From the NCBI RefSeq assembly GCF_045037415.1, contig NZ_CP173438.1: 64,000 nt of DNA; one strand, 5' to 3'. Position numbers and translations under genes: made by a program. Below the pieces are notes generated by a model. The model was not told the DNA's origin. It searched no databases and saw only the letters and a program-made list of their open reading frames with translations. Shown piece after piece: positions 6,949-10,534 of this stretch. Each line of letters opens with the position of its first letter. Positions within the stretch are counted from its first letter, which is position 1. The DNA comes from Escherichia coli (GTDB taxonomy: Bacteria > Pseudomonadota > Gammaproteobacteria > Enterobacterales > Enterobacteriaceae).

Positions 6949-7244
6949 ACTGTTTTCAGTTTGTGTGCGGATGTGCTTTCGATAACCCGATTCAGCGCCT
7001 AATTATGTTGCGTGTTTTGATGTCGGGTTCTTCAGACGGTGAAGGCGAGAGAGTTATTGATCATCAGGTGCTTGCTGATTTCTGCTGTTGTTCTAAGCAA
7101 GCGATATTCAGGGAAACCCTGGCACTGGAAAGAGCTGGTTATCTTCATATCCGAAAAATTGCAACGCTTACTATTGATGCAAAAGCCAGACTACAACCTG
7201 CGCGTGGCTACACAATTCTCATGCCGCGGAAGGAGGTTGTATGA
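6945..7244 (+). CDS. hypothetical protein (99 aa), possible DNA-binding
   Basis: Translationally coupled ORF directly upstream of replication gene. Confidence 0.4.
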   Translation: MNCFQFVCGCAFDNPIQRLIMLRVLMSGSSDGEGERVIDHQVLADFCCCSKQAIFRETLALERAGYLHIRKIATLTIDAKARLQPARGYTILMPRKEVV

Positions 7245-8227
7245 GCCGTTACGCCCCCACACCGGAAGTTATGGCTATTGGTCAAATTAATATTTCCGGC
7301 AATGTTACACCTGCGAACTGGTGGAAATATATTCGACTACCCAGTGGGCGTCCGGATGCGACGGCTATCGCTCTGCTTTCAGAGATCGTTTACTGGTACC
7401 GCCCGACAGAGGTCAGGGATGAGCACACCGGAGCGTTGCTGGGATATCGCAAGCGTTTTCAGGGCGACAAACTGCAAAGAAGCTACCAGGCGTTTGCTGA
7501 GCAGTTTGGTTTCGGGAAAAGGGAAACCGCAGATGCGCTGAAGCGTCTGCGCGATGCAGGGTTTATTACTCTGGATTTACGCACGGTGGAAATGCTCGAT
7601 GGGGTGAAATGCAGCAATATTTTGTTTGTCGGGATCAACCCACAGGCAATTGCGGCCATCACCACACCTTCTTCTGTTTCGCCAGAAAGTAACAGCAATA
7701 ATGCAATCAGCGATACAGCTATTACGTTAAAACGGAACACCCCCCGACGTCATAACGGAACAGGGGATACGCCGAATGTTGATACAAATACAGAGATTAC
7801 TACAGAGATTACAACGGAGACTAAAAACACTATTGATGCATCCGCTGACGCGTCTGCGCGTTCTGCCCGACAGGAATATTCACCGGAATTTGAACAGGCC
7901 TGGCAGGAATATCCCAAACGTGCTGGTGGCAATTCCAAGTCAGCAGCCTTCAAAGCCTGGAAAGCCCGTATCAGGGAGGGAATAAAACCGGAGACCATGC
8001 TTGATGGCGTGAAGCGGTATGCCGCCTGGGTACGTGCTACAGGAAATACCGGCACACAGTTCGTGAAGCAGGCTGCGACGTTCTTTGGACCCGATCGTCA
8101 CTTCGAAGATTACTGGCAACAGCCAGCCGCTCACGGAGGTGGGCGACAGCGACAGGTCGATGTCCTGGCTGGCCTGGGAGCCATGTCTGACAAATTCGGT
8201 AAATCCAGTAACAAATTGACATTCTGA
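7241..8227 (+). CDS. phage replication initiation protein (O-like; conserved phage replication C-terminal domain)
   Basis: Position before DnaC-like gene; C-terminal EYSPEFEQAWQEYPKRAGGNSKSAAFKAWKARI...GTQFVKQAATFF recalled as a conserved phage replication-protein C-terminus; short direct repeats in mid-gene. Confidence 0.6.
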   Translation: MSRYAPTPEVMAIGQINISGNVTPANWWKYIRLPSGRPDATAIALLSEIVYWYRPTEVRDEHTGALLGYRKRFQGDKLQRSYQAFAEQFGFGKRETADALKRLRDAGFITLDLRTVEMLDGVKCSNILFVGINPQAIAAITTPSSVSPESNSNNAISDTAITLKRNTPRRHNGTGDTPNVDTNTEITTEITTETKNTIDASADASARSARQEYSPEFEQAWQEYPKRAGGNSKSAAFKAWKARIREGIKPETMLDGVKRYAAWVRATGNTGTQFVKQAATFFGPDRHFEDYWQQPAAHGGGRQRQVDVLAGLGAMSDKFGKSSNKLTF

Positions 8228-8228
8228 G

Positions 8229-9137
8229 GTGACAGCGATGATGACGATTGACCAACGTGAGAAACAAACAAGACTACAGGCGCGAATGGATGAGTTACGG
8301 GCAGAAATGGATGAGTTACGGGCAGAGATTGCATTTGCTCAGAAGGGCGAAAAGCCATGGCCTTATCGTTCCTGCCTGATGCGTGAAGGTCGCGGATATT
8401 GCGAAAAACACGGTAAATATCGTACGCATATACTGGTGTGGATCGATCGTAATGGCGAGGACAGAGAAAAAATTTCATGCTGCCCTGACTGCTTGATCGC
8501 TGAGGCCAGTGATTTGACCATGGAACTGTCGTCCCTCAAGGCGGAAGAACTGACTGATAACGCCGGAATTGCTCTGCGTTTTCGGGACTGCGAGTTTGAT
8601 AATTATCTGGAGGTTAATCCTGACGCAGCCAGAAATCTTGCGGCCTGTCGCCGCTATGCGGAGAACTGGCCAGATATGCTGGAGAACGGTACCAGTCTTG
8701 TTATGACCGGCAGTTGCGGTACCGGGAAAAATCATCTGGCGGTATCAATGGCAAAACACATCATCCGTAACTATCTGGCCAGTGTGGAGATCACCGACGT
8801 GATGCGCCTTACCCGGGCTGTGAAAAACTGCTGGCGGAATGACAGTGAAAAAACAGCGGATGACGTCATTGAGCATTATGCGTCACTGGATTTGCTGATT
8901 GTCGACGAAGTCGGCGTTCAGTTTGGCAGTGCGGCTGAAATGGCCATTTTGCAGGAAATTATCAATGCCCGGTATGAGGGTATTTTGCCAACTATCCTGA
9001 TCAGCAACCTTTCACCGGAAGAATTGTGGGCGTTCATCAGTCCCCGGATTGCCGACAGGATCACCGATGGCGGGCGCAACTGGTTGTCGTTTAACTGGCC
9101 CAGCTACCGTTCTCGTATCGGAGGTGTTGCCGCATGA
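8229..9137 (+). CDS. DnaC-like helicase loader (IstB-type AAA+ ATPase)
   Basis: Walker A GSCGTGKNHLA, Walker B LLIVDEVG, C-terminal FNWPSYRSR closely resembling E. coli DnaC. Confidence 0.85.
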   Translation: MTAMMTIDQREKQTRLQARMDELRAEMDELRAEIAFAQKGEKPWPYRSCLMREGRGYCEKHGKYRTHILVWIDRNGEDREKISCCPDCLIAEASDLTMELSSLKAEELTDNAGIALRFRDCEFDNYLEVNPDAARNLAACRRYAENWPDMLENGTSLVMTGSCGTGKNHLAVSMAKHIIRNYLASVEITDVMRLTRAVKNCWRNDSEKTADDVIEHYASLDLLIVDEVGVQFGSAAEMAILQEIINARYEGILPTILISNLSPEELWAFISPRIADRITDGGRNWLSFNWPSYRSRIGGVAA

Positions 9138-10534
9138 CCAGCCAGAACACCCCGGCATGGCGTAACGATGACCTGGAAGGCGCTGTCATCGGTGCGTTTT
9201 TTCTGCGTGGGGCCGATCCGGAAGTGATGGATATTCTGGCCACACTTCCGGCGGATGTATTTTTTGTGCGTCAGTACCGGGATATTTACGCGGGGATTTG
9301 CAGACAGGCTCGCATATCCGGCGTCATTGACCCCGTACTGCTGTGCAATGAGATGCCGGAACTTGCCCCGGTGATTACCGACACCGGACGCAAAACCTGG
9401 GTGAAGTCTTCACTGGAGCACTATGTCGCAGCGTTGCGGCGCAATGCCGCACTGCGTGATGCAGAAAAAACACTGACTGAAGCATTACAGAATTTACGTG
9501 ATGCGTATACCTGTGAAGCAGCCGAGGATGCCCTGAAGGATGCGCAGAACATGATGGCCTCACTGTCGACCGGAAAGGGCGTCATTCAGCCGGTTCACAT
9601 TGATGATGTCCTTCCGGAAGTGGTCGACCGTGTTGAATGCCGCAATCAGGGACTGGAGAAATCCAGGGCGCTGATGACCGGTATTGATGAACTGGACGCA
9701 AAAACGGGCGGTATGGAGCCCGGAGACCTGGTATTCATTGCCGCCCGTCCTTCGATGGGGAAAACCGAACTTGCGCTGGACATCATCGACAAGGTGACTG
9801 AGCAGGGGCATGGCGTGCTTCTGTTCACCATGGAGATGGCGAACATCCAGATTGGTGAACGTATGGTGTCTGCTGCCGGTGGAATGCCGGTATCCCGTCT
9901 TAAGTCTGTTGCCCGTTTTGAAGATGAAGACTGGGCGCGTTTCTCGCAGGGCGTGGGACGAATGACGGGGCGTAATATCTGGATGGTGGACCAGGCAAAC
10001 CTGACCATTGATGAGATATGTGCAACCACGAAGCACCACCGGATGAAGCATCCGGAAACGGCGCTGGTTGTGGTCGATTACCTCGGCCTGATTAAAACCC
10101 GCAGCACGGGGCGTCACGACCTTGCTGTGGGGGAAATCTCAAAGGGACTTAAAAGCCTGGCAAAATCCGGCGGTTTTCCGCTGATTGCTCTGAGCCAGCT
10201 CTCCCGTGGCGTGGAATCCAGACCCAATAAACGCCCAATGAACTCGGACCTGAAAAACTCCGGGGAAATCGAGGCGGATGCCGACATCATTCTGATGCTT
10301 TACAGGGAGGAGGTATACAACCCGGAAACTCAGGCCAGAGGCATAGCAGAAATCAACATCACGAAACAGCGTAATGGCACGCTCGGGACCATTTACCGGC
10401 GTTTTCATAACGGACATTTTCTGCCTGTGGACCAGGAGAGTGCCCGGGTTCTTTCCACACCAATGCAACAGCCCCAGCCGCGCAGATACAGCAACAAACG
10501 AACTGACAGCAGTAAGATGGAGCGTTTCTTTTGA
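9134..10534 (+). CDS. DnaB-family replicative DNA helicase
   Basis: 466 aa; Walker A ARPSMGKTELALD, DnaB-like blocks (VVVDYLGLI, LSQLSRGVESR, YREEVYNP). Confidence 0.85.
   Translation: MTSQNTPAWRNDDLEGAVIGAFFLRGADPEVMDILATLPADVFFVRQYRDIYAGICRQARISGVIDPVLLCNEMPELAPVITDTGRKTWVKSSLEHYVAALRRNAALRDAEKTLTEALQNLRDAYTCEAAEDALKDAQNMMASLSTGKGVIQPVHIDDVLPEVVDRVECRNQGLEKSRALMTGIDELDAKTGGMEPGDLVFIAARPSMGKTELALDIIDKVTEQGHGVLLFTMEMANIQIGERMVSAAGGMPVSRLKSVARFEDEDWARFSQGVGRMTGRNIWMVDQANLTIDEICATTKHHRMKHPETALVVVDYLGLIKTRSTGRHDLAVGEISKGLKSLAKSGGFPLIALSQLSRGVESRPNKRPMNSDLKNSGEIEADADIILMLYREEVYNPETQARGIAEINITKQRNGTLGTIYRRFHNGHFLPVDQESARVLSTPMQQPQPRRYSNKRTDSSKMERFF

What the first reader, a model, noticed from the sequence alone, without database searches (positions are those of the whole stretch)
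7241..10534. Replication module encodes both a DnaC-like loader and its own DnaB-like helicase, with iteron-like repeats inside the initiator gene
Lambdoid phages usually carry O plus either P, a DnaC-like loader or a DnaB-like helicase. Here an O-like initiator is followed by both a DnaC homolog and a DnaB-family helicase, all translationally coupled. Inside the initiator gene (7733-7825) there are short direct repeats (AACGGAACA twice, AACGGAGAC once, ACAGAGATTAC twice) that could be origin iterons, by analogy with lambda ori lying within O.
Basis: partly seen in the sequence, partly recalled or inferred. Interest (0 to 1): 0.35.

Follow-up and report, generated by a model that had tools for sequence, protein, structure and literature searches.

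The report
Prophage replication module with embedded origin
An E. coli prophage carries its own origin-binding protein, helicase loader and helicase, and the likely replication origin lies inside the first gene; part of that origin is a 12-base repeat found, base for base, in phage replication genes across many bacterial phyla.

Summary
Window 7241-10534 encodes a 328-aa initiator, a DnaC/IstB-type AAA+ loader and a DnaB-family helicase, tightly packed in a lambdoid E. coli prophage. The same trio is annotated in phage phiP27 and in 'Eru7' Stx phages, and occurs in 479 of 5426 complete E. coli genomes, so it is not new.

The repeats are real and are not mere codon repeats:
- The AACGGAACA copies belong to 22-23-bp units (7722-7787) that sit in different reading frames.
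- Homologues from Yersinia, Proteus, Marinomonas and Parageobacillus carry 4-6 much clearer units at the same place and spacing.
- The ACAGAGATTAC 12-mers (7789-7824) are not initiator-specific iterons. They form the least stable DNA of the module and follow unrelated iteron sets in other initiator types.
- The 23-nt pattern ACAGAGAnTACnACAGAGAnTAC occurs in at least 120 species across phyla, nearly always mid-gene and just downstream of 21-23-bp periodic repeats.
- Codon third positions in the 12-mer are fixed while one second position is free, which points to selection on the DNA.

Best reading: a lambda/SPP1-style origin (iterons plus an unwinding element) encoded in the initiator's disordered linker. 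The initiator's C-terminal tail co-varies with the DnaC type. Nothing has been tested experimentally.

The parts
6945..7244 (+). 99-aa ORF overlapping the initiator start (ATGA). It resembles the N-terminal part of another phage 'replication initiation protein' family. Its role is unknown and its membership in the module is uncertain.
   Evidence: phrog_4617, 2e-29, profile positions 3-93 of 223. No Pfam or NCBIfam hit. Present upstream of the initiator in most alleles but absent in strain OkiPb01703.
7241..8227 (+). Replication initiator / replisome organizer (328 aa). N-terminal winged-helix origin-binding domain aa 1-145 (nt 7241-7675). Disordered linker aa 146-209 (nt 7676-7867). Helical C-terminal adaptor domain aa 210-297 (nt 7868-8131). 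Disordered tail aa 298-328 (nt 8132-8224).
   Evidence: phrog_270, 3e-75. AlphaFold2 pLDDT is above 90 for 1-145 and 210-297, and below 50 for 146-159, 164-209 and 298-328. Foldseek gives only weak winged-helix matches, including DnaD-N 2v79. The N domain is shared with Yersinia, Proteus, Marinomonas and Geobacillus proteins that carry different C-terminal domains.
7722..7787 (.). Candidate iterons: three 21-23-bp units. w1 7722-7744 TTACGTTAAAACGGAACACCCCC; w2 7745-7766 CGACGTCATAACGGAACAGGGG; w3 7767-7787 ATACGCCGAATGTTGATACAA (degenerate). A weak fourth unit lies at 7699-7721. The core resembles the dyad ACGTTnnAACG.
   Evidence: Repeat D10. The units sit in frames 1, 0 and 1 and encode different peptides. 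Homologous position and spacing of 4-6 clear 22-nt units in Proteus, Yersinia, Marinomonas, L101 and Parageobacillus. Only 1-2 substitutions per 105 nt between diverged alleles, both in the spacer.
7789..7824 (.). Array of 12-mers: TACAGAGATTAC, TACAGAGATTAC, AACGGAGACTAA. Family consensus ACAGAGAnTACw. Candidate DNA-unwinding / single-strand-binding element, and also a mosaic junction.
   Evidence: TRF: period 12, 2.7 copies. Copy number is 2-5 in other alleles. DNA homology to Stx phages begins at 7790. The same array follows unrelated iterons in Stx2_EH2201 and in a Parageobacillus prophage. At least 120 species carry the 23-nt pattern.
7775..7834 (.). Least stable duplex segment of the replication module (30% G+C). 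It spans the 12-mer array.
   Evidence: Nearest-neighbour free-energy scan: z = 3.1. It is the lowest 60-mer in any coding region of 5000-11500. Only the intergenic stretch at 11136-11195, just downstream of the Q gene, is lower.
8238..9137 (+). DnaC/IstB-type AAA+ helicase loader (299 aa from ATG 8238; alternative GTG start at 8229). Walker A GSCGTGKN and Walker B LLIVDEVG. The N-terminal ~92 aa are unrelated to E. coli DnaC's DnaB-binding domain and contain a Cys/His cluster (CEKHGKY...CCPDC).
   Evidence: IstB_IS21, 53 bits. NF005931 DnaC, 3.7e-36, below the equivalog cutoff. 6QEL DnaC, 3.9e-29, over aa 93-296. phrog_50, 1.4e-87.
9134..10534 (+). DnaB-family replicative helicase (466 aa). 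Its start overlaps the DnaC stop (ATGA).
   Evidence: DnaB_C, 9.8e-74; DnaB N-terminal domain, 1.2e-5. TIGR00665, 6e-92, below the equivalog cutoff. E. coli DnaB 6BBM/7T22, 1.1e-63, over aa 15-429.

Best explanation
Window 7241-10534 is a self-contained initiation module for theta replication of a lambdoid E. coli prophage. Its origin is embedded in the initiator gene.

Shown:
- The gene order is initiator, DnaC-type loader, DnaB-type helicase.
- The initiator has a winged-helix N domain, a disordered linker and a helical C domain with a disordered tail.
- The linker-coding DNA holds 3(-4) units with 21-23-bp spacing, followed by a 12-mer array. That array is the least stable DNA of the module.
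- This layout recurs in initiator genes across bacterial phyla and is conserved at the DNA level.

Inferred:
- Initiator dimers or oligomers bind the iterons on one face of the helix, two turns apart.
- This distorts the DNA and opens the adjacent (TACAGAGAnTAC)n array. The initiator may hold one strand, as plasmid Rep proteins hold the 13-mers of their unwinding element.
- The initiator's C-terminal tail docks the phage DnaC, which carries the phage DnaB.
- DnaC loads DnaB on the opened strands, and DnaB recruits host primase and Pol III.
- The phage would therefore need neither host DnaB nor host DnaC. The TEITTEITTE peptide is largely a by-product of the DNA element lying in a tolerant, disordered linker.
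For: Proteins:
- Family and structure matches.
- AlphaFold2 domain map placing nt 7676-7867 in a disordered linker.

Iterons:
- The 16-mers at 7724 and 7747 are 14/16 identical, 23 nt apart, and in different frames.
- Homologues found by protein search carry 4-6 units at 22-23 bp in all three frames. Autocorrelation is 0.54-0.76 against codon-shuffle maxima of 0.51-0.56.
- Iteron sequences differ between genera while copies within a genome stay alike. Initiators with other N domains (phiP27, Stx2_EH2201) carry their own repeat sets at the same place.

12-mer array:
- It is the stability minimum of the module.
- It is identical in E. coli and Parageobacillus.
- At least 120 species carry the 23-nt pattern. 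95 of these are mid-ORF, and 90 of the 95 have a best upstream period of 21-23 nt (mean match 0.64 against 0.40 in control DNA).
- A scan blind to synonymous codons gives ACA 150/156 and GAG 150/156 in the iteron context. Elsewhere GAA accounts for 54/93.
- Codon third positions are fixed while one second position is free.
- Segment 7721-7825 is the most conserved part of the gene between alleles.

Partner logic, from 80 prophage loci with the same N domain:
- Tail ...KFGKSS[ND]KLTF always occurs with DnaC and DnaB.
- Tail ...SEQDYGSTNFNW occurs with a DnaC only 59% identical, most diverged in its first 90 aa, while DnaB stays 93% identical.
- Tail ...DYSQIPxGFRG never occurs with either.

Precedents:
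- Lambda ori lies in the middle of O, and two iterons plus the AT-rich tract suffice for unwinding (PMC7466680).
- SPP1 gp38/gp39/gp40 with oriL inside gene 38 has been reconstituted in vitro (PMC6316719).
- Rep proteins bind ssDNA 13-mers of the unwinding element (PMC4081077, PMC10602881).
Against: - No experiment bears on this locus. Origin activity, initiator binding and melting are all inferred.
- In the window itself only two units are clearly alike, and the 23-nt periodicity is not significant on its own.
- The array is only moderately A+T-rich (70% A+T), and intergenic DNA downstream of Q is less stable.
- The 12-mer is always read in the T-E-x-T frame, so a protein-level role cannot be excluded.
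- Many of the loci counted are related prophages and are not independent.
- The tail-DnaC covariation could reflect linkage of adjacent DNA rather than physical contact.
- My literature search covered open-access papers only.
Confidence: 0.68

Rival explanations
1. The repeats are only codon repeats of a low-complexity, disordered linker. They have no function at the DNA level, and the origin lies elsewhere or is not sequence-defined.
For: - The region encodes a disordered linker.
- The 12-mers are in frame and vary in copy number, like slippage-prone repeats.
- The 23-nt periodicity is not significant in the window alone.
Against: - The 22-23-bp units sit in all three frames and encode unrelated peptides.
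- Synonymous positions of the 12-mer are fixed across phyla, while a non-synonymous position is free.
- The segment is the most conserved DNA of the gene between alleles, although the flanking linker is the most variable.
- 90 of 95 loci share the same period and order.
Confidence: 0.06
2. The conserved element is the peptide T-E-x-T-T-E-x-T. It would be a short linear motif in the linker that binds a universal replication partner or tunes linker behaviour. On this view the DNA conservation is secondary.
For: - The array is translated in the T-E-x-T frame in about 105 of 120 genome hits and sits between the two domains.
- T and E are nearly invariant in the protein alignment.
Against: - The x residue varies among I, N, S and T through second-position changes, while its first and third codon positions are fixed.
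- Thr is ACA and Glu is GAG in 96% of units next to iterons, in genes ranging from 28 to 63% G+C. Unrelated TExT repeats mostly use GAA.
- In Marinomonas the peptide changes (SEIN) but the DNA core CAGAGAYTA is kept.
Confidence: 0.12
3. The 12-mer array persists mainly as a homology patch for recombination. It would let N-terminal (origin-specific) and C-terminal (partner-specific) halves of initiator genes be shuffled, and would have no role in initiation.
For: - DNA homology to Stx phages starts at 7790, and to phiP27 at about 7831.
- One N domain is joined to at least three tails, and across the wider family to many unrelated C-terminal domains.
- One C domain is joined to at least three N domains.
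- Copy number varies.
Against: - A recombination patch need not always lie immediately downstream of phased iterons, nor be the stability minimum.
- Base-for-base conservation between Firmicutes and Proteobacteria, which are unlikely to exchange DNA often, argues for direct selection.
- This reading is compatible with the best explanation rather than exclusive of it.
Confidence: 0.1
4. The phage DnaC does not serve the phage DnaB. It would instead capture or inhibit the host DnaB (host takeover), while the phage helicase self-loads or is loaded by the initiator directly, as proposed for P22-type initiator-helicase modules.
For: - The AAA+ core is homologous to E. coli DnaC.
- Related phages carry DnaC without DnaB and so must use host DnaB.
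- The divergent DnaC variant pairs with a nearly unchanged DnaB.
Against: - dnaC and dnaB overlap (ATGA) and always co-occur in the 80 loci, apart from one locus where DnaB was not detected (contig end not checked).
- The N-terminal 92 aa replace the E. coli DnaC segment that binds host DnaB.
- SPP1 uses its own loader for its own helicase (PMC6316719).
Confidence: 0.1

Closest known systems
Bacillus phage SPP1 replication module (gp38 origin-binding protein, gp39 loader, gp40 DnaB-type helicase, oriL inside gene 38)
   Same: - The gene order is the same: initiator, loader, DnaB-family helicase, with overlapping genes.
- The origin (direct repeats plus an AT-rich unwinding element) lies mid-gene in the initiator, between an N-terminal DNA-binding part and a C-terminal domain (PMC6316719).
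- That system was reconstituted in vitro with host primase and polymerases.
   Different: - gp39 is a small loader (126 aa by its annotated coordinates); here the loader is a DnaC/IstB-type ATPase.
- SPP1 repeats have an 11-nt period and SPP1 lacks the ACAGAGAnTAC array.
- Homology between the SPP1 N domain and this one was not tested.
Phage lambda O protein and ori-lambda (also 933W and other Stx phages)
   Same: - The origin lies in the middle of the initiator gene.
- It consists of dyad-like iterons spaced about two helical turns apart, followed by an AT-rich tract.
- The N-terminal half binds the origin and the C-terminal half recruits the helicase-loading partner.
- Iteron number varies (4-6), and two iterons plus the AT tract suffice for unwinding (PMC7466680).
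   Different: - There is no Phage_rep_O Pfam match, only a weak PHROG O-like hit.
- The partner is not P. The phage brings its own DnaC and DnaB instead of hijacking host DnaB.
- The iteron sequence is unrelated.
Phage phiP27 (L17-L18-L19) and 'Eru7' Stx-converting phages
   Same: - The C-terminal half of the initiator, DnaC and DnaB are 87-94% identical in DNA, in the same order, followed by the same small ORF and Q.
- Rha/Ash genes lie downstream of cI, as in Eru7 (PMC8951638).
   Different: - The N-terminal origin-binding domain and its iterons are different in each.
- No cultured-phage record has the window's N domain at 60% identity or more.
- The held Eru papers classify by the first genes after cI and do not analyse the origin, and the terms DnaC and iteron do not occur in them.
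Iteron plasmid origins (RK2 oriV/TrfA, F/RepE, pPS10 and similar)
   Same: - Iterons with about 22-bp spacing are bound by winged-helix initiators.
- The adjacent unwinding element is built of repeated 13-mers, one strand of which the Rep protein binds sequence-specifically (PMC4081077, PMC10602881).
   Different: - Plasmid origins are intergenic, and the Rep fold is a WH1-WH2 pair.
- Here the origin is coding, the repeat unit is 12 nt with a different sequence, and no homology to Rep_3 proteins was detected.

Membership tests
Lambda O family (Pfam Phage_rep_O, PF04492) | Sequence match to the Phage_rep_O N-terminal domain | tested here: not met
   No Pfam family at E <= 0.01. There are only weak PHROG O-like hits: phrog_391 at 7e-7 and phrog_678 at 1e-4.
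Lambda O family (Pfam Phage_rep_O, PF04492) | Origin (iterons plus AT-rich tract) in the middle of the initiator gene | tested here: inconclusive
   The architecture is present by sequence and comparison. Origin function was not tested.
DnaC/IstB AAA+ helicase loaders | IstB_IS21/DnaC AAA+ domain with Walker A and Walker B motifs | tested here: met
   PF01695, 53.1 bits (cutoff 24.1). GTGKN and DEVG motifs are visible in the translation. E. coli DnaC 6QEL, 3.9e-29.
DnaC/IstB AAA+ helicase loaders | Orthology to host DnaC (NCBIfam equivalog NF005931) | tested here: not met
   124.9 bits against a cutoff of 357. The N-terminal 92 aa do not align to DnaC.
DnaB-family replicative helicases | DnaB N-terminal and C-terminal (RecA-like) domains | tested here: met
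   PF03796, 248.4 bits; PF00772, 25.7 bits (cutoff 23). Full-length alignment to E. coli DnaB, 1.1e-63. It falls below the equivalog cutoffs of TIGR00665 and TIGR03600.
SPP1-type initiator-loader-helicase module | Three adjacent genes: origin-binding protein, loader, DnaB-type helicase | tested here: met
   compared with SPP1 genes 38-40.
SPP1-type initiator-loader-helicase module | Loader homologous to gp39 | not tested
   The loader here is an IstB/DnaC AAA+ protein. No direct comparison with gp39 was run. RefSeq labels gp39 only 'helicase loader'.
Iteron-type replication origin | Three or more direct repeats in helical phase (about 22 bp) | tested here: inconclusive
   The window has two clear and one or two degenerate units, not significant alone. 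The feature is clearly met in homologues.
Iteron-type replication origin | Adjacent easily melted (A+T-rich) element | tested here: met
   7775-7834 is the least stable 60-mer of the module: 30% G+C, z = 3.1.
Iteron-type replication origin | Specific binding of the initiator to the repeats, and autonomous replication of the fragment | not testable with these tools
   This requires EMSA or footprinting and an ori-cloning assay.

The most novel reading that the evidence does not exclude
The tandem 12-mer (TACAGAGAnTAC)n may be a sequence-specific origin element shared by a whole superfamily of winged-helix phage and prophage initiators. The taxa include Proteobacteria, Firmicutes, Cyanobacteria, Chloroflexi and Nitrospirae. 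It would be the phage counterpart of DnaA-trios or plasmid 13-mers, bound as single-stranded DNA by a conserved part of the initiator. It always lies just downstream of lineage-specific 21-23-bp iterons and inside the initiator's own reading frame. The widespread 'TEITTE' peptide would then be a translation by-product. I found no description of this in the open-access literature searched.
Probability: 0.4. Interest if true: 0.7.

Novelty: new variant of a known kind. Interest (0 to 1): 0.55.

Why it matters
For this prophage, which is common in E. coli including ST131-type clinical strains, and for its Stx-phage relatives, the analysis gives a concrete and testable origin and an order of assembly. 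Replication of Stx phages drives toxin production, yet the origins of the non-lambda ('Eru') types have not been mapped.

More broadly, a coding-embedded origin with a base-for-base conserved 12-mer offers three things:
- a simple sequence signature for finding origins and initiators in unannotated phage and prophage DNA from many phyla;
- a case of DNA-level selection shaping a protein linker;
- a natural system for asking how winged-helix initiators open DNA.

The tail-DnaC covariation points to a swappable docking code between initiators and helicase loaders.

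Tried and rejected
- Pfam and NCBIfam scans of the initiator and the 99-aa ORF gave nothing.
- PDB sequence searches with the N-domain profile and the C domain gave only a marginal GntR/FadR HTH match.
- Foldseek against PDB gave only weak generic winged-helix matches, none at E <= 0.001. I therefore make no specific fold assignment beyond 'winged helix', and the C domain remains unassigned.
- The first viral-contig scan with the N-domain alignment returned only near-identical E. coli prophages. It was useful for tail and copy-number statistics but not for divergence.
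- The C-domain protein search returned mostly partial proteins.
- Literature: 'P27' of the Wegrzyn laboratory turned out to be a lambda-O phage, not phiP27. The Eru papers do not treat DnaC, DnaB or the origin. The Kazlauskas survey does not quantify DnaC-DnaB co-occurrence. Searches for the motif strings gave only false matches. Weigel and Seitz 2006 is not held.
- I considered whether the 12-mer resembles a DnaA box or an IHF site by eye and saw no resemblance. No formal scan was run.
- I did not run Rfam or a promoter scan, because nothing suggested an RNA element.
- I dropped a planned test of correlation between N-domain similarity and iteron similarity, because the coding constraint would confound it.

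Full report
**1. What is in the window**

The window is an E. coli chromosome segment carrying a lambdoid prophage. It is 100% identical to NZ_CP018991 and to many ST131-like genomes.

RefSeq annotation of that record gives this order:
- integrase/excisionase
- a LexA-family cI
- a small cro-like gene
- Rha, Ash and Rha regulators
- three small ORFs
- a 'hypothetical protein' (the initiator, 7241-8227)
- an 'ATP-binding protein' (8238-9137)
- a 'replicative DNA helicase' (9134-10534)
- a small ORF, then Q
- a methylase/nuclease island
- lysis genes and lambda-like head and tail genes

- The second is an IstB/DnaC AAA+ protein. It matches PF01695 at 53 bits and E. coli DnaC 6QEL at 3.9e-29 over aa 93-296. 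Walker A and B motifs are present.
- The third is a full-length DnaB-family helicase. It matches PF03796 at 248 bits and E. coli DnaB at 1e-63.
- The first matches phage 'replication initiation protein' phrog_270 (3e-75). It has no Pfam or NCBIfam hit and is only weakly O-like.

The genes are tightly packed. ATGA overlaps occur at 7241-7244 and 9134-9137. The initiator stop overlaps the Shine-Dalgarno of the loader gene.

**2. How unusual is the trio?**

DNA searches find the C-terminal half of the initiator plus DnaC plus DnaB in 25 phage records. These include phiP27 genes L17-L19 and Stx1a/Stx2a phages of the 'Eru7' type. The trio is also in 479 of 5426 complete E. coli genomes (PMC8951638).

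The nearest DnaC relatives outside this group carry an initiator plus DnaC only. These are mEpX1, Dewey, Pseudomonas U9, Vibrio R20L and BcepMigl.

Pseudomonas phage D14L and a metagenomic locus (L099) have the trio independently. The well-studied SPP1 module is initiator, loader and DnaB helicase (PMC6316719).

The arrangement is therefore a minority solution among lambdoid phages, but it is a known one.

**3. The initiator is modular, and the repeats sit at the joint**

AlphaFold2, run with a 43-sequence alignment, gives four parts:
- a confident N domain, aa 1-145
- a disordered linker, aa 146-209
- a confident helical C domain, aa 210-297
- a disordered tail, aa 298-328

Foldseek finds only weak winged-helix matches, among them the DnaD N domain.

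Homology to Stx phages starts at 7790 and to phiP27 at about 7831. Three phages share a near-identical C domain behind three unrelated N domains.

The converse also holds. The window's N domain occurs in Salmonella, Yersinia, Proteus, Morganella, Citrobacter, Arsenophonus and Marinomonas, and in Bacillus, Geobacillus and Acinetobacter phages. In these it is fused to many different C-terminal domains. The neighbouring genes also differ: DnaC only, DnaC plus DnaB, a Toprim-DnaB primase-helicase, or none.

**4. The 22-23-bp units are DNA repeats, not codon repeats**

In the window, ACGTTAAAACGGAACA (7724) and ACGTCATAACGGAACA (7747) are 23 nt apart. They are therefore out of frame with each other and encode TLKRNT and RRHNGT. 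A degenerate third unit (7767) and a weak fourth (7699) keep the register.

On its own this is not statistically compelling. The lag-23 match is 0.46, within the codon-shuffle null.

Homologues found by protein similarity, not by DNA motif, show the same thing far more clearly at the same position:

| Homologue | Units |
|---|---|
| Proteus | four 22-nt units in frames 2, 0, 1, 2 |
| Yersinia | five |
| Marinomonas | six (lag-22 match 0.76) |
| L101 | lag-22 match 0.63 |
| Parageobacillus prophage | four units with a perfect GACGTTnnAACGTC palindrome (0.65) |

All of these exceed their codon-shuffle maxima.

Unit sequences differ between genera but are homogeneous within a genome. Initiators with other N domains have their own sets at the same place. 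phiP27 has five 25-nt units around TCAGAnTCTGA. Stx2_EH2201 has five or six 23-nt units of the type AAACCCGTTTTCGGGAAA.

This is the pattern expected of initiator-specific iterons, as in lambda (PMC7466680).

**5. The 12-mers are something else**

TACAGAGATTAC x2.7 (7789-7824) directly follows the iterons. Several observations set it apart:
- Its copy number varies among E. coli alleles. The alignment shows about 2.7, 3.7 and 5.7 copies, and 2-4 exact copies are counted in 80 loci.
- It is the least stable 60-mer of the module: 30% G+C, z = 3.1.
- It follows all three kinds of enterobacterial iterons seen here. It is base-for-base identical in the Parageobacillus prophage.

I estimate about 0.5 matches by chance in that collection. 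The hits come from Gamma- and Alphaproteobacteria, many Firmicutes, Cyanobacteria, Chloroflexi, Nitrospirae and others.

Of these hits, 95 lie in the middle of 280-430-aa ORFs in the T-E-x-T frame. In 90 of the 95, the best period of the 130 nt upstream is 21-23 nt, with a mean match of 0.64. Control DNA from the N-domain coding part gives 0.40 with no preferred lag.

The ORFs carry replisome-organizer C domains: Phg_2220_C, DUF6017, DnaA_N, DnaT and DnaD-like. Only about a quarter have the window's N-domain family.

**6. DNA-level or peptide-level conservation?**

A scan of viral contigs that was blind to synonymous codons (ACNGARNNNACN... x2.5) gave two contrasting sets after removing duplicates:

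| Context | Thr = ACA | Glu = GAG | Glu = GAA |
|---|---|---|---|
| Iteron-like upstream DNA (52 stretches) | 150/156 | 150/156 | 6/156 |
| No iteron-like upstream DNA (31 stretches) | 63/93 | 39/93 | 54/93 |

In repeat units not forced by the search pattern, codon third positions are nearly fixed (A 97, G 84 and T 87 of 101). The second position of the x codon is free (A 31, C 17, G 11, T 42), which gives I, N, S or T. The genes range from 28 to 63% G+C.

Between two E. coli alleles that differ by 6-8% overall, the segment 7721-7825 has 1-2 changes in 105 nt, both in an inter-iteron spacer. The flanking linker DNA differs by 4-19%, and by 19% on the 3' side in both alleles.

I conclude that selection acts on the DNA motif ACAGAGAnTACw. 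A protein-level role is not excluded.

**7. Partner recognition**

Among 80 prophage loci with the same N domain, the tail tracks the neighbouring genes:
- Tail ...KFGKSS[ND]KLTF always comes with DnaC and DnaB. In one locus DnaB was not detected; I did not check whether the contig ends there.
- Tail ...SEQDYGSTNFNW comes with a DnaC only 59% identical, while DnaB stays about 93% identical.
- Tail ...DYSQIPxGFRG never has either gene downstream.

The divergent DnaC differs most in its first 90 residues, at 7-13 identities per 30, against 21-23 per 30 in the ATPase core.

The simplest reading is that the tail docks DnaC. Linkage of adjacent DNA is the alternative.

**8. Mechanism proposed**

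The initiator binds the phased iterons and opens the adjacent 12-mer array. It may hold one strand, as plasmid Rep proteins do with 13-mers (PMC4081077, PMC10602881). Through its tail it brings in DnaC-DnaB. The phage helicase is loaded and then uses host primase and polymerase, as in SPP1 (PMC6316719).

All binding and melting steps are inferred.

**9. Verdict**

It is right about the trio and about an origin inside the initiator gene. It is wrong about 'O-like', about the rarity of the trio, and in treating all the repeats as iterons.
- The module itself is a new member of known kinds.
- The conserved 12-mer array next to phased iterons, embedded in a disordered-linker reading frame across phyla, is the unexpected part. 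I could not find it described in the literature available to me.

Noticed in passing
window 8285-8326: A perfect 21-nt tandem duplication lies inside the DnaC-like gene and encodes MDELRAE twice, in a predicted coiled-coil-like N-terminal stretch. The divergent DnaC variant lacks one copy's worth of residues at this spot (a 3-aa gap in the alignment).
   Followed up: partly
window 11220-14078: Between Q and the lysis genes lies an island of three genes: a DNA cytosine methyltransferase (11220-12260, +), an overlapping MAE_28990/HEPN-like nuclease (12229-12918, -) and a DUF262 protein (about 12921-14078, -). It looks like a prophage-borne defence or modification cassette. phiP27 has a GIY-YIG nuclease and a different methylase at the same place.
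   Followed up: no
window 6945-7244: A 99-aa ORF overlaps the initiator start and matches only the N-terminal 93 of 223 positions of another 'replication initiation protein' family (phrog_4617, 2e-29). It may be a remnant or a separate small HTH protein. It is absent from the OkiPb01703 allele. Proteins of 100-103 aa occupy the same position in the Yersinia and Proteus loci, and a 102-aa protein lies just upstream in the Citrobacter locus, but homology was not checked.
   Followed up: no
L004 (E. coli SF-468) 601-1596; L008 (OkiPb01675) 601-1620; 25 of the 80 loci L009-L088: Initiator alleles with the same N domain and origin, but a tail ending ...DYSQIPxGFRG, are never followed by DnaC or DnaB. 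In the two annotated loci the initiator is followed by a PerC-family gene (L004) or, after a short pseudogene fragment, a methylase gene (L008). How these recruit a helicase (host DnaB-DnaC, or a primosome route?) is open.
   Followed up: partly
window 4210-6536: Two Rha-family regulators (4210-4917 and 5685-6536, the latter with an N-terminal Ash domain) and a separate Ash-family gene (5026-5688) sit in tandem between cro and the replication genes. This is the layout used to define 'Eru7' Stx phages.
   Followed up: no
L007 (E. coli S6) 601-1588; protein P0011: Some alleles are frameshifted. P0011 reads through the 12-mer array in another frame (..IQIQRLLQRLLQRLKTLL..). L007 is annotated as a frameshifted pseudogene, although the neighbouring DnaC gene is annotated as an intact CDS.
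   Followed up: no
L105 (Ca. Syntrophoarchaeum MAG), L115 (Diapherotrites MAG), L117, L143, L161, L197, L216, L221: The 23-nt pattern also occurs on contigs binned as archaea. L105 has a clear window-type N domain (3e-54), so it is either a contaminating contig or a real archaeal virus. In a few genomes the longest ORF reads the repeat in another frame (RDY repeats). These cases may be unrelated.
   Followed up: no
L224 (SPP1) about 539-645: SPP1 gene 38 shows, mid-gene, 11-nt-period repeats (GAAACGACA...) followed by an A+T-rich stretch of AACAATGATAAC-like repeats. This is the same layout as here but with a different sequence and period.
   Followed up: partly
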